From a virus, in IMG/VR virus record IMGVR_UViG_3300021185_002756, positions 1 through 64,000 of that record: a stretch of 64,000 nt of DNA; one strand, given 5' to 3'. Shown here one piece after another: positions 1,566 to 8,521 of this stretch (position 1 is its first letter; the number at the start of each line of letters is the position of its first letter). A program made the translations under genes and the position numbers. The notes under the pieces were generated by a model. That model made no database searches, was not told the origin of the DNA, and saw only the letters and a program-made list of their open reading frames with translations.

Positions 1566-2114
1566 TTAGATTCCCGCGTTTAACAAAAACTTTTCTAAGG
1601 CTCTGTCTTTTTTGCCTTTGTTGTATATAGTCTTGTATGGAATCCCAGCGGCAGTTCTCATCTCGTTTAGTTCAAACTGTTCACGTTCTCTGTATGTCTT
1701 GGGTGAAGTAGGTACTATCATGTTGAACTGTTCCACAGTAAAAGGCATTTCTTTGCCTCTGTAGCCCATGGTCCAGCCGTCACCTTCGTACTCTGTTAGT
1801 GTGTTAAAATCATCTAGCAAGGTGGCTAAGTTGTCAGCAGTGTAGTTTCTACGTTTAAGTTCGATATATACCAGGAATCTATTTGGCTTTACTTCACCTG
1901 GGCTCATATCAGCATCTAGTACAAAGTCATAGCCTTTTTCGAACCAGTTGACCAAGTCTACTGCGGCTTGTCTGTCACGGACATAAAAACTTGCAACAAC
2001 TATCTCGTCGTCATCGCCCATCTTACTTGAAAAGTCATCAACATACATTGTGCTTTTCATCATACCTGCTAGGTCTTTGTAACCTAAACCTTCTGTTAAA
2101 TTAAACTTGGACAT
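1566..2114 (-). CDS. conserved jumbo-phage hypothetical protein
   Basis: Long ORF; likely start MSKFNLTEG, coupled to the upstream gene. Confidence 0.6.
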   Translation of the reverse strand: MSKFNLTEGLGYKDLAGMMKSTMYVDDFSSKMGDDDEIVVASFYVRDRQAAVDLVNWFEKGYDFVLDADMSPGEVKPNRFLVYIELKRRNYTADNLATLLDDFNTLTEYEGDGWTMGYRGKEMPFTVEQFNMIVPTSPKTYREREQFELNEMRTAAGIPYKTIYNKGKKDRALEKFLLNAGI

Positions 2115-2676
2115 CGATATTAGCATCCATTTCTTGTTGTGCGTCTGCATCCATAACCTGTTGCTGATCTAAGTCTGCATTGTATGCGTCATCAAGATCC
2201 TGCAGATCAACTGTTTCATCTTCAAGTTCGATTGCCCCAGTTCTTATGTCTTGCATAAGACTTTTTGGCATAATAATTTCTACCAACCAAATTGGCTTTT
2301 CAATCAGTCTAGCAACCTTTGTGCCTGCCTTAAAGTCGCTTGGTGATTTAACTTTCACTGGAACTTTCATTTTGGTTTTCTTCCATTTAACTTCACAATC
2401 AAATGGCAATAAACGCATTGCTCCTCTTGGGTCCGGCATAAGTTGTTCTGGCCATAGAAATGTACATGAAGTTTTGTATGGACCTTGTTCAGGACCAGCA
2501 ACAAGCTCTCCTAGTTCCCAATTGCGAAATGCAAATATATCCAGCTCGTTCATCACACGTTCAAAGTCTAATAGTATTTTCATACTACCATCACTCATGT
2601 AGATGCCCTTGATGTTATCTGCTACCATCCAATAGTCGGAACCGTCTTTGAAAAATTTATTATCGTCGAGTGACAT
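2101..2676 (-). CDS. conserved jumbo-phage hypothetical protein (acidic C-terminus)
   Basis: 191-aa ORF downstream of TAAATA at 2704. Confidence 0.6.
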   Translation of the reverse strand: MSLDDNKFFKDGSDYWMVADNIKGIYMSDGSMKILLDFERVMNELDIFAFRNWELGELVAGPEQGPYKTSCTFLWPEQLMPDPRGAMRLLPFDCEVKWKKTKMKVPVKVKSPSDFKAGTKVARLIEKPIWLVEIIMPKSLMQDIRTGAIELEDETVDLQDLDDAYNADLDQQQVMDADAQQEMDANIDVQV

Positions 2677-2840
2677 CTGTGGCCTTTTGTTTTACGTTAA
2701 CAGTATTTAGCCCAATTTGTCTTTGTGGCCACTAATATATTTAGCGGTGCATATCAAAACTTTACACATGTTATTTCTTATTTGTTTTTGTTTTAAATAT
2801 TATTGTGGGTAGCGAACAACACTTAACCTTAGGAGATACA

Positions 2841-3563
2841 ATGTCTCGAGCGAAACGCAAAGCAAAATATCAAAGACAACTACAACAAGACAACACAATA
2901 AATTTTAACCAAGCACTAAAACGCAAACACATTGAACTTCGTCCGAAGTCAATCAATCAAGAAAACCTTATAACCAGCCTACTAGATCCACAAACCAACA
3001 TCACTGTGGCGACTGGACCTGCGGGCACGGGTAAAACTTATCTTGCAATGTTAGCGGCTATAAAAGCATTTAGAGATGGTGCATGTGAACGTATTGTATT
3101 GACTCGCCCAGCAGTGGGTGTCGATGATGAAAAGCATGGCTTTCTGCCTGGTGACTTGAATAGTAAAATGGAGCCGTGGACCAGACCTTTGTTTGATGTA
3201 CTGCGAGAATTCTACACTAAAAAAGAAATAGCACGTATGTTAGATGAACAAACTATTGAAATATCACCATTGGCTTTCATGAGAGGAAGAACATTCAAGG
3301 ATGCCTGGATTATAGCAGATGAAATGCAAAATGCAACACCTAGTCAAATGAAAATGCTAATGACACGCATAGGCGAGAACAGCAAAATAGTAATCACAGG
3401 AGATGTTGAACAAACGGATAGAACCGTACATAACAACGGACTGATAGACTTATGTAAACGATTAGAAACACGTCGTGATGGACTAAGTGTATGCTATATG
3501 AACAATAGAGATATCCAAAGACATCCTATCATTGACACAGTATTGGAGATCTACGCAACTTAA
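2841..3563 (+). CDS. phoH: PhoH family ATPase
   Basis: GPAGTGKT Walker A, LTRPAV, GFLPG, LAFMRGRTF, DEMQN, GDVEQTD, RHP; RBS AGGAG at 2831 favours the ATG at 2841. Confidence 0.95.
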   Translation: MSRAKRKAKYQRQLQQDNTINFNQALKRKHIELRPKSINQENLITSLLDPQTNITVATGPAGTGKTYLAMLAAIKAFRDGACERIVLTRPAVGVDDEKHGFLPGDLNSKMEPWTRPLFDVLREFYTKKEIARMLDEQTIEISPLAFMRGRTFKDAWIIADEMQNATPSQMKMLMTRIGENSKIVITGDVEQTDRTVHNNGLIDLCKRLETRRDGLSVCYMNNRDIQRHPIIDTVLEIYAT

Positions 3564-3567
3564 AAAT

Positions 3568-3670
3568 TGGCTCTGGGGGTAGGAGTCGAACCTACAAGGT
3601 TAAATATATTGCAGTACATTCAACCACACGGTTAACAGCCGTGCGTGTTTACCAATTTCACCACCCCAGA
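3568..3670 (-). tRNA. tRNA-Asn(GUU) with unusually long (31-nt) class-II variable arm, CCA encoded
   Basis: Acceptor TCTGGGG/CCCCAGA, G73, CCA; D-arm GTG-AAATTGGTAAA-CAC; anticodon arm CACGG-CTGTTAA-CCGTG; variable region T-GGTTGAATGTA-CTGCAA-TATATTTAACC-TT; T-arm GTAGG-TTCGACT-CCTAC. Confidence 0.9.
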
Positions 3671-3676
3671 TTATTC

Positions 3677-4507
3677 TTATACCTTGTTGATTTTTTCTAG
3701 TGCAGGGATCATACGTGTAACACCTATGCCTCCGCCTACTCTTTGAAAGAAGTCAAACTCTAAAAACTTTTCTAGTTCTGCTTCAACTCTTTCCTTACCA
3801 AACAGTTTGAATAGTAACTCTGCATACTCTCCGCCTACAATACTATGGAATGTATCTCTCATCATATCAACATCACATGAACGTTCTGCTGATCCAATAG
3901 TTTCCATACCACCTAGTATAACATCCATCTTCTTTGCAGTATTGCCATCATCATTTCTAGCCATGTTCCAAAATGGGCTTGTTAGTTCGGGGAAGTTTGT
4001 AATAAGTGTTTGACCAAACTGTTCTTCCATCTTTAGTTCGTGTTCTGCTTCCATTTCTACGTCAGTACCGAGTCCAAAGTGTTGTTGCCATTCAGCATAG
4101 GTCTTTTCTGTAATGTTGCCAAAGCCTAAGTATTCACATAGTTCATACTCCATTGCTTTTAGATCATCTACATTACCTGGCATTTCAAATTCAAACATTG
4201 GAAATATTATATCGTGTCTACCTGGAATTGCATTTGGTTCCTGTCTGTAGGAAGTTGAGACACAAAAAAAGCCCTTTGCTGAGGGCTGACTTAGTAATTC
4301 ATGTTCTAACCACATCTGGCCTGTTTGTGGTAGTGGCCAAACATTGCCTGCATAGTTGTAAGTTGCTACATTGAATGGATCTTCGCATGCGGCTAGTATT
4401 GATAATCTGTTTTGTGTGTGTACTTCAAGAAATCCTTTTTCCAAAAAAAATGACCTTAAAAGGCCAACTGTCTCTGTGAATTTACTTGGGTCTATTAGTT
4501 GCGTCAT
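3677..4507 (-). CDS. class II aaRS catalytic core (AsnRS/AspRS paralog, archaeal AsnA-like) lacking the anticodon-binding domain
   Basis: Motif 1 RSFFLEKGFLEVHT starts at residue 18; LPQTGQMWLE; motif 2 SYRQE..RH..FPMFEFE; MDVILGGMETIGSAER; motif 3 GGGIGVTRM. Only 276 aa, no room for an OB-fold. Confidence 0.85.
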   Translation of the reverse strand: MTQLIDPSKFTETVGLLRSFFLEKGFLEVHTQNRLSILAACEDPFNVATYNYAGNVWPLPQTGQMWLEHELLSQPSAKGFFCVSTSYRQEPNAIPGRHDIIFPMFEFEMPGNVDDLKAMEYELCEYLGFGNITEKTYAEWQQHFGLGTDVEMEAEHELKMEEQFGQTLITNFPELTSPFWNMARNDDGNTAKKMDVILGGMETIGSAERSCDVDMMRDTFHSIVGGEYAELLFKLFGKERVEAELEKFLEFDFFQRVGGGIGVTRMIPALEKINKV

Positions 4508-4522
4508 TGCTTTTCCTTTTTT

Positions 4523-4552
4523 TGCCTAAAAAAAATTTGCCCAAAAAAAATT
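4523..4552. repeat. 15-nt tandem repeat in the 5' leader of the aaRS-like gene
   Basis: TGCCTAAAAAAAATT followed by TGCCCAAAAAAAATT. Confidence 0.8.
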
Positions 4553-4580
4553 GGACGTTACTTGTTCATCGAGTTATTTA

Positions 4581-4664
4581 TTATAGTTTGCCTTTTCCTG
4601 ACAAATACTGTACAGTTGGCTGTGGCTTGAACCATCTTTGTAATAGTTTCTCTAACCAATTCAT
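4581..4664 (-). CDS. 27-aa small protein
   Basis: MNWLEKLLQRWFKPQPTVQYLSGKGKL, preceded by RBS AGGAGAG. Confidence 0.5.
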   Translation of the reverse strand: MNWLEKLLQRWFKPQPTVQYLSGKGKL

Positions 4665-6084: not shown

Positions 6085-6120
6085 CTACGATTTGGCATAA
6101 CTATCATGCTAAATAAACAT

Positions 6121-6166
6121 ACGTTCACCCGAGAGGGCGGAAGTAGGCAATCGCTGAAGGAACGCA
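6121..6166 (+). ncRNA. glutamine riboswitch (glnA RNA motif)
   Basis: CGTTC-A-CCC GAGA GGG-CGGAAGTA-GGC AATC GCT-GAAGGAACGC: P1 CGTTC/GAACG, GNRA-capped P2, CGGAAGTA..GAA E-loop and P3, as in the glnA consensus. Confidence 0.85.
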
Positions 6167-6196
6167 CCTAACCATTTACTTAGGGAGGGTGGCAAA

Positions 6197-6687: not shown

Positions 6688-6868
6688 TGTTAGCCTCCTT
6701 TAATATTTGTTTACGTCCTTCTACACCAATCTGTGAGTCCATCATTGTTTTAACATGTTGTAACATAGCACATGCCATCATCAGTATATCTTCTTTGCTA
6801 TCACACATTAGTATTTGTTGTTCTATAGGCCGGCACAGTTCCCTCATTCGCTCTTGAACTTCTGTCAT
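6680..6868 (-). CDS. hypothetical protein
   Basis: RBS GAGGAG; overlapping start/stop with neighbours. Confidence 0.55.
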   Translation of the reverse strand: MTEVQERMRELCRPIEQQILMCDSKEDILMMACAMLQHVKTMMDSQIGVEGRKQILKEANND

Positions 6869-7410
6869 TTTGTTATCTCCTCTTGAGTTATGTGTAATTC
6901 CTGTTTCATATCATCTGAGTTAAGATACGTTAAGTTAATAATACTCGCAAAACCAACTACCCTTGCTTCTGCTTGTTCTACTAAACGTTTTGTTGCTAAC
7001 ATACTTCCGCCAGTTGCAACTAAATCATCAACAATAAGAACTCTATTTGCATGTCCTAGTAAGCCTTCTTGTAGCACCAGTGTGTCTTCACTGTATTCTG
7101 TGCCATAACTTTCTTCTAACAAACTACCGGGATACTTTGAACCTTTTTTACGTACCATTATAAACGGCACACCAATAACACTTGCTAACACTGCACCAAC
7201 TGCAAAGCCTCTGCTTTCAATCCCAACAATGTGTGTTATCTCACTGTTTGTGTTGAACAGTCTTTGTATTTCTACTGCCAGTTCAGCGGCAACTTGATTC
7301 CACACAGGTTGTGCAAACAAACTGTTAACATCATAAAAGTTTACACCCTCAACCGGATAGTCCATCACAGTCCTCATGTAGTCTGTTGGCTTAGTTTTTT
7401 CTAAAGACAT
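6865..7410 (-). CDS. apt: adenine phosphoribosyltransferase
   Basis: DYPVEGVNFYD, GIESRGF, VRKKG, YGTEY, PRPP motif VLIVDDLVATGGS. Confidence 0.9.
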   Translation of the reverse strand: MSLEKTKPTDYMRTVMDYPVEGVNFYDVNSLFAQPVWNQVAAELAVEIQRLFNTNSEITHIVGIESRGFAVGAVLASVIGVPFIMVRKKGSKYPGSLLEESYGTEYSEDTLVLQEGLLGHANRVLIVDDLVATGGSMLATKRLVEQAEARVVGFASIINLTYLNSDDMKQELHITQEEITK

Positions 7411-8521
7411 ATACACCCTCCCACTTTTCTCTACCTTGTTTACGATCATTACCCACACCCGGACGTGTGTTCAACATCATTTTAATTATTCCATCATGTT
7501 TGAAGCCGACCTTCTCTGCGGTTTGGATCCACCTTTCCGTGACTTCGTAAGGCTCGGGTCGATCATAGCTCTTATAGTCTGCGATGTTGGTGGCGAATAC
7601 TCCGTCACTGTTGAGCCCTTTGCGAATGTTTTGCATAGTCGGAGCAACATAGCCTTCAAACCATTCATCTTCAGTTTTAAACTGTACCATGCATTGTGTT
7701 TCTTCATTTGAATACTTCTCCAAGTTAAAATAAGGAGGTGAACTGAATGCTAGGTCTATATCCTCAGGTTGATAATTTTCACTAACATCTTGTACGATAG
7801 TGCCTCTTACACCGGTTGCTTCGTCTATTACATCATTCAAATAATTCAAGTATGCAACTGTTTCAGTGTTGGGTTCAACTCCTATGTAATTGTACTTAAA
7901 GTTGCTTGAGCCTATGCCTAATAATCTACCACCATAGCCACAACTGTAATCATACACATTGCCCCAAAGCACAGGGCACAGATGTTCTACTATTGCTTTG
8001 GCATTTTGTGCTTTGAAGTTAGTAACGTTCTCACCTGTGACTAATTCAAGTGCAGTTCTTAACTGTGTTGGACGTAACAATCTATCACCTGTTCTAAACT
8101 CAAAACAAATTCTAATTGCACGTTTAAGTTTGCGTTCATCAAAGAATCGATCCTTTAAACTGTTTGATCCTCTGCCTTTAGGTTCAGCAGTCATCATATT
8201 AGGAAACAAAAATCTATTGATTGTTTGCCCTCTGTTGTTGCCCAGTCCAATTTTTCCGTTGTCTACATTGTTATAGGATAACTTGCTAAACTTACGTACT
8301 GCATCAACCAATCCTTGGTGGGTATAATACACAATAGGAACTAGATCAATACTACGATATATGTTGTATACCTTTTCTATTGTTCCTTGTGGGTCAGCAT
8401 CATACTGTGCTTTATCAAAGGCGTCTAATTGATCGTAGACACTTTCATAACCAGTGAACTCGCCATCGATTATGTGCATTGATGATATATTCCAGATATC
8501 ATGTAATTGATCAATTACCAC
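7391..8521 (-). CDS. SAM-dependent amino-methyltransferase (DNA N6A/N4C MTase-like)
   Basis: YDYSCGYGGRLLG SAM-binding motif and FSSPPYF catalytic motif. Confidence 0.75.
   Translation of the reverse strand: MVIDQLHDIWNISSMHIIDGEFTGYESVYDQLDAFDKAQYDADPQGTIEKVYNIYRSIDLVPIVYYTHQGLVDAVRKFSKLSYNNVDNGKIGLGNNRGQTINRFLFPNMMTAEPKGRGSNSLKDRFFDERKLKRAIRICFEFRTGDRLLRPTQLRTALELVTGENVTNFKAQNAKAIVEHLCPVLWGNVYDYSCGYGGRLLGIGSSNFKYNYIGVEPNTETVAYLNYLNDVIDEATGVRGTIVQDVSENYQPEDIDLAFSSPPYFNLEKYSNEETQCMVQFKTEDEWFEGYVAPTMQNIRKGLNSDGVFATNIADYKSYDRPEPYEVTERWIQTAEKVGFKHDGIIKMMLNTRPGVGNDRKQGREKWEGVYVFRKN

What the first reader, a model, noticed from the sequence alone, without database searches (positions are those of the whole stretch)
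3568..3670. tRNA-Asn with a class-II body and an 11-bp variable stem
Seen: a full cloverleaf with GUU anticodon, U1:A72, G73 and encoded CCA, which are the bacterial tRNA-Asn/GatCAB identity elements. It also has a Leu-type D-arm with a 3-bp stem and a 31-nt variable region folding into an 11-bp stem (with G-U pairs), for 103 nt in total. Established: long V-arms are normally limited to Leu, Ser, Tyr and Sec tRNAs, while Asn tRNAs are class I. Inference: an atypical tRNA architecture that needs a dedicated charging enzyme, evades host tRNA-cleaving defences, or could be charged with another amino acid.
Basis: partly seen in the sequence, partly recalled or inferred. Interest (0 to 1): 0.8.

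Follow-up and report, generated by a model that had tools for sequence, protein, structure and literature searches.

The report
Long-armed asparagine tRNA tied to enzyme
A marine cyanophage carries a real asparagine-type tRNA built on a leucine-tRNA-like body with a long extra arm; in hundreds of ocean phages it sits directly behind a cut-down asparagine-tRNA-synthetase look-alike, so it probably works with that enzyme and is not a routine spare tRNA.

Summary
A 103-nt tRNA lies on the minus strand (3670..3568). It has a GUU anticodon, U1:A72, G73, an encoded CCA, a 3-bp Leu-type D stem and a 31-nt variable region with an 11-bp stem.

It is one of at least 108 distinct sequences of a phage tRNA family. 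GUU, U1:A72 and G73 never vary. The extra arm is always present (13-38 nt), is supported by compensatory changes, and switched length class at least 9-10 times.

The tRNA sits 0-20 nt behind a 276-aa AsnRS-like catalytic core that lacks an anticodon-binding domain. This held in 74 of 77 and 91 of 96 enzyme-selected loci, and in 66 of 67 tRNA-selected loci.

The enzyme does occur without the tRNA, in a few phages and in many bacteria and archaea. There it neighbours pyrD/pyrE, in genomes where pyrB and pyrC were not found.

The tRNA is therefore an accessory of the enzyme. Whether the enzyme charges it, or whether host enzymes load it with asparagine for the enzyme's pathway, is unresolved; I lean to the second.

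Most family members have U37 and some have C33, both odd for a decoding tRNA. The window's copy has a canonical loop.

I found no description in the searchable literature. Earlier notes of this scan report the same pair in at least eight other windows.

The parts
3568..3670 (-). Class-II-shaped tRNA(GUU), 103 nt including the encoded CCA
   Evidence: Rfam RF00005 56.2 bits; family model R1 105 bits; MFE fold is the cloverleaf plus extra arm
3634..3636 (-). Anticodon GUU, in the canonical loop CUGUUAA (U33, A37)
   Evidence: GUU in 108 of 108 distinct family sequences
3596..3626 (-). Variable region, 31 nt: 11-bp stem (3625-3615 with 3608-3598) and loop CUGCAA
   Evidence: 55 distinct variable regions all fold as hairpins; double changes at 4 stem pairs among the long arms
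3645..3661 (-). Leu-type D arm: 3-bp stem GUG/CAC, A13/A22 mismatch, loop with G18 G19
   Evidence: aligns with phage tRNA-Leu D arms and not with class I tRNA-Asn
3568..3578 (-). 3' acceptor strand CCCCAGA (A72 pairs U1), discriminator G73, encoded CCA
   Evidence: U1:A72 and G73 in every complete family sequence; CCA encoded in 45 of 105
3677..4507 (-). 276-aa AsnRS-like class IIb catalytic core without an anticodon-binding domain; its stop codon lies 6 nt before the tRNA
   Evidence: PF00152 9e-16; AF2 pLDDT 95.6; best folds are AsnRS of Thermus and Pyrococcus; profile matches AsnRS above AspRS, LysRS, EpmA and archaeal AsnA
4575..4582 (-). AATAAATA box, resembling a T4-type late promoter, about 70 nt upstream of the enzyme start; a possible promoter for enzyme plus tRNA (inferred only)
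   Evidence: Sequence read; no functional test
6865..7458 (-). Type I phosphoribosyltransferase gene 2.4 kb upstream on the same strand; a possible link to nucleotide synthesis (weak)
   Evidence: PF00156 9e-18; sub-threshold pyrE match of 28.8 bits

Best explanation
This is a functional, selected tRNA-like acceptor that belongs to a two-gene phage module: an AsnRS-like core, then the tRNA. It is not a general-purpose spare tRNA.

Most likely mechanism (inferred):
1. The tRNA is transcribed with the enzyme gene and processed out.
2. It is loaded with asparagine through its unchanged bacterial Asn identity set. The anticodon GUU and G73 serve AsnRS or non-discriminating AspRS, and U1:A72 serves GatCAB.
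3. It then acts as a dedicated carrier of asparagine for the AsnRS-derived enzyme. The enzyme could take Asn from the 3' end by reversing the transfer step, giving Asn-AMP, or use Asn released from the tRNA.
4. The enzyme's own chemistry most likely feeds late pyrimidine synthesis (dihydroorotate to orotate to OMP), as its cellular orthologues suggest.

The Leu-like D arm, the extra arm and, in most relatives, U37 or C33 would set this tRNA apart from the host's translating tRNA-Asn.

Shown: the structure, its conservation, the asymmetric linkage to the enzyme, and the enzyme's pyrimidine gene context.

Inferred: who loads the tRNA, which way the amino acid moves, and the enzyme's reaction.
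For: Structure and selection:
- All five helices are kept: 95.6% of cells are paired and 17 pairs show double changes, against 0 of 500 shuffles.
- There are 108 distinct sequences and 55 distinct extra arms, and all the arms fold.

Asymmetric linkage:
- The tRNA follows the enzyme in 74 of 77 and 91 of 96 enzyme-selected loci.
- In a tRNA-first pattern scan, 66 of 67 hits have the enzyme directly upstream.
- The enzyme occurs alone in L043, L080 and L081, in two huge phages and in about 68 cellular loci.

Invariants and anticodon loop:
- The invariant elements are exactly GUU, G73 and U1:A72. These are the elements read by enzymes that have anticodon-binding domains and by GatCAB (PMC9976931, PMC2330236). 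The acceptor pairs 2:71 and 3:70 vary.
- Position 37 is U in 98 of 108 sequences and position 33 is C in 10, which is unlike decoding tRNAs.
- In yeast, t6A37 of tRNA-Asn blocks AspRS (PMC9976931), so its absence would favour aspartylation.

Enzyme:
- It has AsnRS-type signatures (Q..Q..LE, SYR.E) and all class II motifs.
- Cellular orthologues of 44-61% identity have a dihydroorotate dehydrogenase gene within 2 kb in 11 of 76 loci from four phyla, including an enzyme-pyrD-pyrE operon in L162.
- In 28 genomes that carry the enzyme, PyrB and PyrC pass their cut-offs in 0 of 28, against 14 of 14 and 11 of 14 control genomes. PyrD is found in 18 of 28 and PyrE in 17 of 28.
- P-SSM2 and P-SSM7 carry pyrE.
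Against: - Nothing shows that the tRNA is charged, or by what.
- The enzyme is strongly acidic and shows no phage-specific RNA-binding residues. Direct hand-over from the tRNA is therefore not favoured by sequence.
- The carrier idea works best if the picocyanobacterial hosts make Asn only on tRNA (no AsnRS, AsnA or AsnB). I recall this but could not test it, because no host genome handle was obtainable.
- The Leu-type D loop carries an extra nucleotide at 20a, and an extra D-loop base is an antideterminant for GatCAB (PMC2330236).
- The window's own copy has a fully canonical anticodon loop (A37, U33) and could decode AAY codons normally.
- The enzyme's reaction is unknown. 14 of the 28 cellular genomes also have AsnB-family genes and 2 have AsnA.
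Confidence: 0.35

Rival explanations
1. Private aminoacylation pair for translation. The AsnRS-like core itself charges this tRNA with Asn (or Asp) through the acceptor end, and the tRNA then decodes AAC/AAU for the phage. This would give a direct Asn-tRNA route independent of the host.
For: - Tight gene pairing, with the tRNA almost never found without the enzyme.
- The enzyme keeps all class II motifs and AsnRS-type amino-acid-pocket signatures.
- The window's anticodon loop is canonical.
- One cellular locus (L168) has the enzyme followed by a normal tRNA-Asn.
Against: - The enzyme has no anticodon-binding or other RNA-binding domain, a net charge of about -19, and no phage-specific basic residues.
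- Orthologues of 44-61% identity work without such a tRNA, in pyrimidine gene contexts and mostly alongside a normal AsnRS.
- 91% of family members have U37 and 9% have C33.
- Acceptor pairs 2:71 and 3:70 are not conserved, so nothing in the acceptor stem marks this tRNA as private.
- Known AsnRS-like cores that lack the anticodon-binding domain (archaeal AsnA) do not charge tRNA (my knowledge of Roy et al. 2003).
Confidence: 0.27
2. An ordinary supplementary decoding tRNA-Asn, loaded by host enzymes, that travels with the enzyme gene as one mobile cassette. The extra arm would be tolerated baggage without a specific role.
For: - tRNA genes flank mobile cassettes in cyanomyophage genomes (PMC3037559).
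- In P-SSM7 three other tRNA genes lie next to the pair.
- Arm length is very labile, with at least 9-10 class switches.
- The full Asn identity set is kept.
Against: - The arm is never lost in 108 variants and keeps pairing through compensatory changes.
- The Leu-type D arm is also fixed.
- U37 dominates.
- 66 of 67 tRNA-first hits lie 0-20 nt behind the enzyme, and the copy was not found elsewhere in the phage records searched.
Confidence: 0.18
3. Counter-defence tRNA. The altered body and anticodon loop make it resistant to, or a decoy for, host anticodon nucleases that cut GUN/QUN tRNAs. This would keep Asn decoding alive during infection.
For: - Phage tRNAs are known to rescue translation from retron and PARIS tRNA nucleases (abstracts of PMC11555353 and PMC12409363).
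- The family has unusual loop positions 33, 37 and 38 beside an invariant GUU.
Against: - No defence or nuclease gene is associated with it.
- This reading does not explain the strict linkage to the AsnRS-like gene.
- The window's copy has an unaltered loop.
Confidence: 0.07
4. Recoding or mischarging tRNA. The long arm plus G73 lets host SerRS (or LeuRS) load it, so AAY codons would be read as Ser or Leu, as with allo-tRNAs or nematode nev-tRNAs.
For: - SerRS recognises a long variable arm and G73 and ignores the anticodon (PMC7609411).
- The D arm and the A15/U48 positions are Leu-like.
Against: - G73 is an antideterminant for LeuRS, and C2:G71 (present in the window) is one for E. coli SerRS (PMC9976931).
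- U1:A72 and GUU are strictly kept, which SerRS and LeuRS do not need.
- The neighbouring gene is Asn-type.
- Proteome-wide Asn to Ser replacement would be costly.
Confidence: 0.05

Closest known systems
Bacterial tRNA-Asn (class I), substrate of AsnRS or of non-discriminating AspRS plus GatCAB
   Same: GUU anticodon, G73 and U1:A72. The acceptor stem, anticodon loop and T arm resemble a cellular tRNA-Asn (L168).
   Different: The variable region is 13-38 nt with a stem, not 4-5 nt. The D arm is Leu-type with a 3-bp stem and a nucleotide at 20a. 91% of the family have U37 in place of A37.
Bacterial class II tRNAs, especially tRNA-Leu
   Same: Long stem-loop variable arm; D arm UGGYGRAAYUGGUARAC...; A15 and U48. 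The best non-family hits of the family model are tRNA-Leu at 51-68 bits.
   Different: G73 in place of the Leu determinant A73; U1:A72; an Asn anticodon; arms of up to 12 bp.
Class II tRNAs with class I anticodons: allo-tRNAs (Mukai 2017, reviewed in PMC7609411) and nematode nev-tRNAs (my knowledge)
   Same: A long-arm tRNA body carrying an anticodon outside Leu, Ser and Tyr.
   Different: Allo-tRNAs have 8/4 or 9/3 acceptor/T stems and Ser or Ala identity, whereas this tRNA is 7/5 with an Asn identity set. Neither group is tied to a synthetase-like gene or to phages.
Dedicated synthetase/tRNA pairs, such as selC* tRNA-Cys with its own CysRS and PylRS/tRNA-Pyl (PMC7609411)
   Same: An odd tRNA encoded next to a synthetase-family gene.
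   Different: Here the enzyme lacks any tRNA-body-binding domain, and its orthologues function without the tRNA.
AsnRS/AspRS-derived stand-alone cores: archaeal asparagine synthetase AS-AR (PDB 3P8T), AsnA, EpmA
   Same: A class IIb catalytic core of about 280-330 aa without an anticodon-binding domain.
   Different: The sequence relation is weak (3P8T E = 1.7e-4 against AsnRS 1e-13). None of them is paired with a tRNA gene, and none is linked to pyrD/pyrE.

Membership tests
tRNA (Rfam RF00005) | Covariance-model score above the gathering threshold, with a full-length match | tested here: met
   56.2 bits against 29, model positions 1-71
tRNA (Rfam RF00005) | Core tertiary nucleotides: U8, A14, G18 G19, T-loop UUCRANY, 7/5 acceptor/T stems | tested here: met
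   Read; U8 G9, G18 G19 and GGUUCGA invariant in the family
Bacterial tRNA-Asn | Identity set: anticodon GUU plus discriminator G73 (E. coli; PMC9976931) | tested here: met
   108 of 108 GUU; G73 in all complete sequences
Bacterial tRNA-Asn | U1:A72, the GatCAB determinant (PMC2330236, PMC9976931) | tested here: met
   105 of 105 complete sequences
Bacterial tRNA-Asn | Class I body: 4-5 nt variable loop, 4-bp D stem, no extra D-loop base | tested here: not met
   Variable region 31 nt (13-38 in the family); 3-bp D stem; 11-nt D loop
Bacterial tRNA-Asn | A37 (site of t6A) 3' of the anticodon | tested here: inconclusive
   A37 in the window and 8 other variants; U37 in 98 of 108 and C37 in 1
Bacterial tRNA-Asn | Is charged with Asn (directly or through Asp) and decodes AAY | not testable with these tools
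   Needs charging assays or tRNA-seq
Class II tRNA (Leu/Ser/Tyr type body) | Variable region longer than 10 nt that forms a stem-loop | tested here: met
tRNA-Leu | Discriminator A73 (major determinant; PMC9976931) | tested here: not met
   G73 is invariant
tRNA-Ser | Long arm plus G73, and no C2:G71 antideterminant | tested here: inconclusive
   The arm and G73 are present. C2:G71 is present in the window and in 48 variants; G2:C71 in 54
tRNA-Tyr (bacterial class II) | Anticodon GUA and A73 | tested here: not met
   GUU and G73
allo-tRNA | 8/4 or 9/3 acceptor/T-stem geometry | tested here: not met
   7-bp acceptor stem and 5-bp T stem
Orthogonal synthetase/tRNA pair | The adjacent enzyme aminoacylates this tRNA specifically | not testable with these tools
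   Only adjacency is shown. The enzyme lacks tRNA-body-binding domains

The most novel reading that the evidence does not exclude
A phage uses a purpose-built tRNA as an amino-acid carrier for primary metabolism, not for translation. Host enzymes load Asn onto this class-II-shaped tRNA(GUU), and the Asn is handed to an AsnRS-derived enzyme. That enzyme replaces the first steps of pyrimidine synthesis (no PyrB or PyrC) and supplies dihydroorotate or orotate for phage DNA synthesis.
Probability: 0.25. Interest if true: 0.92.

Novelty: new variant of a known kind. Interest (0 to 1): 0.78.

Why it matters
Long variable arms are textbook markers of Leu, Ser, Tyr and Sec tRNAs. Here a large natural family, found in at least several hundred ocean phage contigs and in the cultured Prochlorococcus phages P-SSM2, P-SSM5 and P-SSM7, puts an asparagine identity set on such a body. 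The family keeps that arrangement under selection.

Its near-obligate position behind an anticodon-blind AsnRS-like enzyme gives two testable possibilities:
- a natural minimal synthetase/tRNA pair, of interest for tRNA identity rules and for building orthogonal pairs
- a tRNA-dependent step in a still undescribed pyrimidine route that also exists in Bacteroidota, Chlamydiae, CPR bacteria and DPANN archaea

Cultured phage-host systems exist, so the question can be tested directly. There is also a practical point. ARAGORN misses or mis-calls these genes, and the P-SSM2 GenBank record places its tRNA feature about 2 kb away from the sequence.

Tried and rejected
Readings considered and rejected:
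- Chance hairpin or pseudo-tRNA: rejected by the CM scores, the shuffles and the covariation.
- Extra arm as an intron or spliced insert: no group I or bulge-helix-bulge features. The arm is a plain hairpin at the class II position, with 1 unpaired nt on its 5' side and 2 on its 3' side, in all 55 variants.
- tRNA-Leu, tRNA-Ser or tRNA-Tyr with a mutated anticodon: the discriminator and the 1:72 pair fit none of them.
- Conserved UAUUUA in long arms as a TAAATA late promoter on the opposite strand. This motif is expected often by chance in AT-rich DNA. The one-sided A/G changes opposite U are explained by wobble pairing. Long arms of the second clade lack the motif.
- Enzyme as a plain AsnA-type asparagine synthetase. 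This was not supported as the main reading, because some genomes carry AsnA and AsnB as well and the gene context is pyrimidine synthesis.

Searches that led nowhere:
- BLAST of the tRNA against E. coli genomes and phage records: no match.
- Distant enzyme relatives P0160 and P0229 in IMG/VR: none found.
- One viral scan was wasted on a pattern with a spacing error. Its single hit, L288, was a false positive.
- Host AsnRS status: no paper was found and no Prochlorococcus genome handle was obtainable.
- The two huge phages with the enzyme have only ordinary tRNAs.

Full report
**1. What is there**

The feature is a tRNA gene on the minus strand, 3670..3568. Rfam's tRNA model matches it end to end at 56.2 bits against a gathering score of 29. 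ARAGORN reports no tRNA in the whole window.

Read directly:
- acceptor stem UCUGGGG/CCCCAGA, giving U1:A72, then G73 and an encoded CCA
- U8 G9, and a 3-bp D stem GUG/CAC flanked by an A13/A22 mismatch, with loop AAAUUGGUAAA
- anticodon stem CACGG/CCGUG with the canonical loop CUGUUAA (GUU, A37)
- a 31-nt variable region: one unpaired U, an 11-bp stem (two G-U pairs) closed by CUGCAA, then UU
- T arm GUAGG-UUCGACU-CCUAC

The free MFE fold gives this five-arm shape (-36.9 kcal/mol, z = -2.9). Only the strand was left unstated. It is the sole tRNA in the 98-kb virus record that holds the window.

**2. Surroundings**

Six nucleotides upstream on the same strand ends a 276-aa ORF (3677-4507). This ORF is a class IIb aminoacyl-tRNA-synthetase catalytic core (PF00152, 9e-16) with no anticodon-binding domain. 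phoH converges from the other side (2805-3563, +). A glutamine riboswitch lies at 6120-6168, and a phosphoribosyltransferase gene at 6865-7458.

The window is a relative of the T4-like Prochlorococcus phages P-SSM2, P-SSM5 and P-SSM7. All three have the same gene pair, annotated 'tRNA ligase' and 'tRNA-Asn'. The only literature mention I found is one table row, 'T4-GC 194, tRNA ligase', in Sullivan et al. 2010 (PMC3037559). The tRNA's shape is not discussed there, nor in the other papers searched.

**3. The tRNA family**

I built a covariance model from eight copies and searched loci chosen by the enzyme.
- The tRNA lies 0-20 nt after the stop codon in 74 of 77 loci of the window's clade that have enough downstream DNA.
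- It does so in 91 of 96 loci of the P-SSM2, P-SSM7 and L101 clades; the other five are cut by contig ends.

Together these give 108 distinct sequences.
- Invariant: G34 U35 U36, U1:A72, G73 and U8 G9.
- Position 37 is U in 98 sequences, A in 9 (the window's type) and C in 1.
- Position 33 is C in 10 sequences.
- CCA is encoded in the window's clade but not in the P-SSM2 clade.
- The variable region is always 13-38 nt. Its 55 distinct versions all fold as hairpins of 2-12 bp with the same 1-nt and 2-nt flanks (median z = -2.7).

On 32 long-arm copies, 95.6% of cells are paired. Seventeen of 31 pairs show changes on both sides, and no shuffle reached this. Four of those pairs are in the extra arm.

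On a tree of 122 enzyme sequences there are two deep clades, and the arm-length class changes at least 9-10 times on well-supported branches. In the window's clade the long arm looks ancestral and was repeatedly cut back to a 3-4-bp stem with a tetraloop. It was never lost. Long arms in the other clade have unrelated sequences.

An 11-bp arm is therefore one state of a labile but obligatory arm.

**4. What kind of body**

Aligned with reference tRNAs from the fetched loci, the parts resemble different tRNA types.
- The acceptor stem, anticodon loop and T arm resemble a cellular class I tRNA-Asn.
- The D arm and the A15/U48 positions are those of tRNA-Leu.
- The best non-family hits of the family model in two huge phages and two marine MAGs are all tRNA-Leu (51-68 bits). 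Ordinary tRNA-Asn genes in the same records score 49.8 bits or do not reach the threshold.

It is not a Leu, Ser or Tyr tRNA, for three reasons drawn from PMC9976931:
- G73 is an antideterminant for LeuRS and TyrRS.
- The window's C2:G71 is one for E. coli SerRS.
- The anticodon is not GUA.

**5. Linkage is one-sided**

I also searched IMG/VR by a pattern of the tRNA alone. Of 67 hits with at least 850 nt upstream, 66 have the enzyme directly upstream. The exception, L319, is a different lineage of class-II-shaped tRNA(GUU).

The enzyme, however, occurs without the tRNA in several places:
- three cyanophage contigs
- one contig where only a 20-nt acceptor minihelix is left (L099)
- two huge phages
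- about 68 loci of bacterial and archaeal MAGs, including Bacteroidota, Chlamydiae, Alphaproteobacteria, CPR and DPANN, at 44-61% identity and some on megabase contigs

One of those cellular loci (L168) has a normal tRNA-Asn 247 nt downstream. The tRNA therefore depends on the enzyme, and the enzyme does not depend on the tRNA.

**6. The enzyme**

- The AlphaFold model is confident (pLDDT 95.6).
- The best structural matches are AsnRS of Thermus and Pyrococcus, closely followed by AspRS.
- A family profile matches AsnRS (1e-13) ahead of AspRS (9e-9), LysRS, EpmA and archaeal asparagine synthetase (1.7e-4).
- It shares the AsnRS strings Q..Q..LE, where AspRS has a Lys, and SYR.E. It keeps motif 2, the Mg-binding acids and motif 3.
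- The family has 450 clusters at 50% identity with E below 1e-10.

Earlier notes of this scan had reported the same pair in at least eight other windows and a link to pyrimidine synthesis. I had already seen dihydroorotate dehydrogenase beside two cellular copies, and I then tested the link myself.
- A DHODH gene lies within 2 kb in 11 of 76 loci from four phyla.
- L162 is an enzyme-pyrD-pyrE operon.
- In 28 enzyme-bearing genomes, PyrB and PyrC pass their cut-offs in none, against 14 of 14 and 11 of 14 controls. PyrD is found in 18 and PyrE in 17.
- Most of these genomes also have a normal AsnRS (17-19 of 28).
- P-SSM2 and P-SSM7 carry pyrE.

Phage and cellular enzymes share about 90 conserved positions. 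The phage enzymes are more acidic (median pI 4.7, net charge about -19) and have no phage-specific basic residues. The phage enzyme therefore most likely does the same chemistry as the cellular ones, and it shows no sequence sign of a new tRNA-binding surface.

**7. Reading**

It is shown that this is a real, selected tRNA-like acceptor with the full bacterial Asn identity set on a class II body. It is also shown that the tRNA is an accessory of the AsnRS-like gene.

The invariant elements are the ones read by enzymes that see the anticodon (AsnRS, non-discriminating AspRS) and by GatCAB (PMC9976931, PMC2330236). They are not elements that an anticodon-blind core could use to tell this tRNA from the host's tRNA-Asn.

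The frequent U37 and C33 are unlike working decoders. I therefore favour, at about 0.35, a carrier role. Host enzymes would load Asn on this tRNA, and the Asn would serve the enzyme's pathway, probably pyrimidine precursor synthesis.

This reading is strongest if the picocyanobacterial hosts make Asn only on tRNA. I recall that their AspRS is annotated as non-discriminating, but I could not verify it.

The rivals are:
- a private charging pair for translation (0.27)
- a hitch-hiking ordinary tRNA-Asn (0.18)
- a counter-defence tRNA (0.07)
- Ser or Leu mischarging (0.05)

The window's own copy, with A37 and U33, could decode normally whichever reading holds.

**8. Novelty**

Class II bodies with class I anticodons are known: allo-tRNAs and nematode nev-tRNAs. 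This is therefore a new variant of a known kind. It differs from both in four ways: it has a 7/5 geometry, it carries an Asn identity set, it is phage-borne, and it is bound to a synthetase-derived gene.

Cultured phage-host pairs make it testable at the bench.

Noticed in passing
L099:2866-2885: Behind a 64%-identical copy of the enzyme, the tRNA is reduced to a 20-nt hairpin, UCCGGGG-UC-CCCCGGA-G-CCA. This is just the acceptor stem, G73 and CCA. It may be a deletion remnant or a minimal acceptor minihelix.
   Followed up: partly
L319:4285-4370 (minus strand): A second lineage of class-II-shaped tRNA(GUU) with U1:A72, G73 and CCA. It lies behind an unrelated 171-aa ORF and not behind the enzyme. 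It is the only such case among 67 tRNA-first hits.
   Followed up: partly
L162 (Parachlamydiales MAG) 1986-4568; also L140, L119, L121, L131, L161: Cellular orthologues of the enzyme sit beside pyrD, and in L162 form an enzyme-pyrD-pyrE operon. All 28 enzyme-bearing genomes tested lack PyrB and PyrC above their cut-offs. This suggests an undescribed entry into pyrimidine synthesis.
   Followed up: partly
L168:2001-3093: In one bacterial MAG the enzyme (44% identity) is followed 247 nt later by a normal class I tRNA-Asn. This is a possible ancestral form of the phage gene pair.
   Followed up: no
window 6120-6168 (+): A glutamine riboswitch aptamer (RF01739, 53 bits) 1.6 kb from the pair. It is the only other Rfam hit in the window.
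   Followed up: no
window 6865-7458 (-): A type I phosphoribosyltransferase (PF00156, 9e-18) with a weak pyrE-like match, on the same strand 2.4 kb upstream of the enzyme.
   Followed up: partly
L001 (AY939844.2, P-SSM2): The GenBank record annotates its tRNA-Asn at 164094..164179, inside a CDS. The sequence that matches the tRNA model lies at about 162083..162168, directly after the 'tRNA ligase' gene.
   Followed up: yes
L098:2963-3062; window 3568-3670: ARAGORN misses the long-arm copies, or calls one of them tRNA-Asp(atc). These genes are therefore likely under-annotated in phage genomes.
   Followed up: yes
window 4539-4556 (-): A terminator-like hairpin with a T run lies in the leader between the late-promoter-like box and the enzyme start codon.
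   Followed up: no
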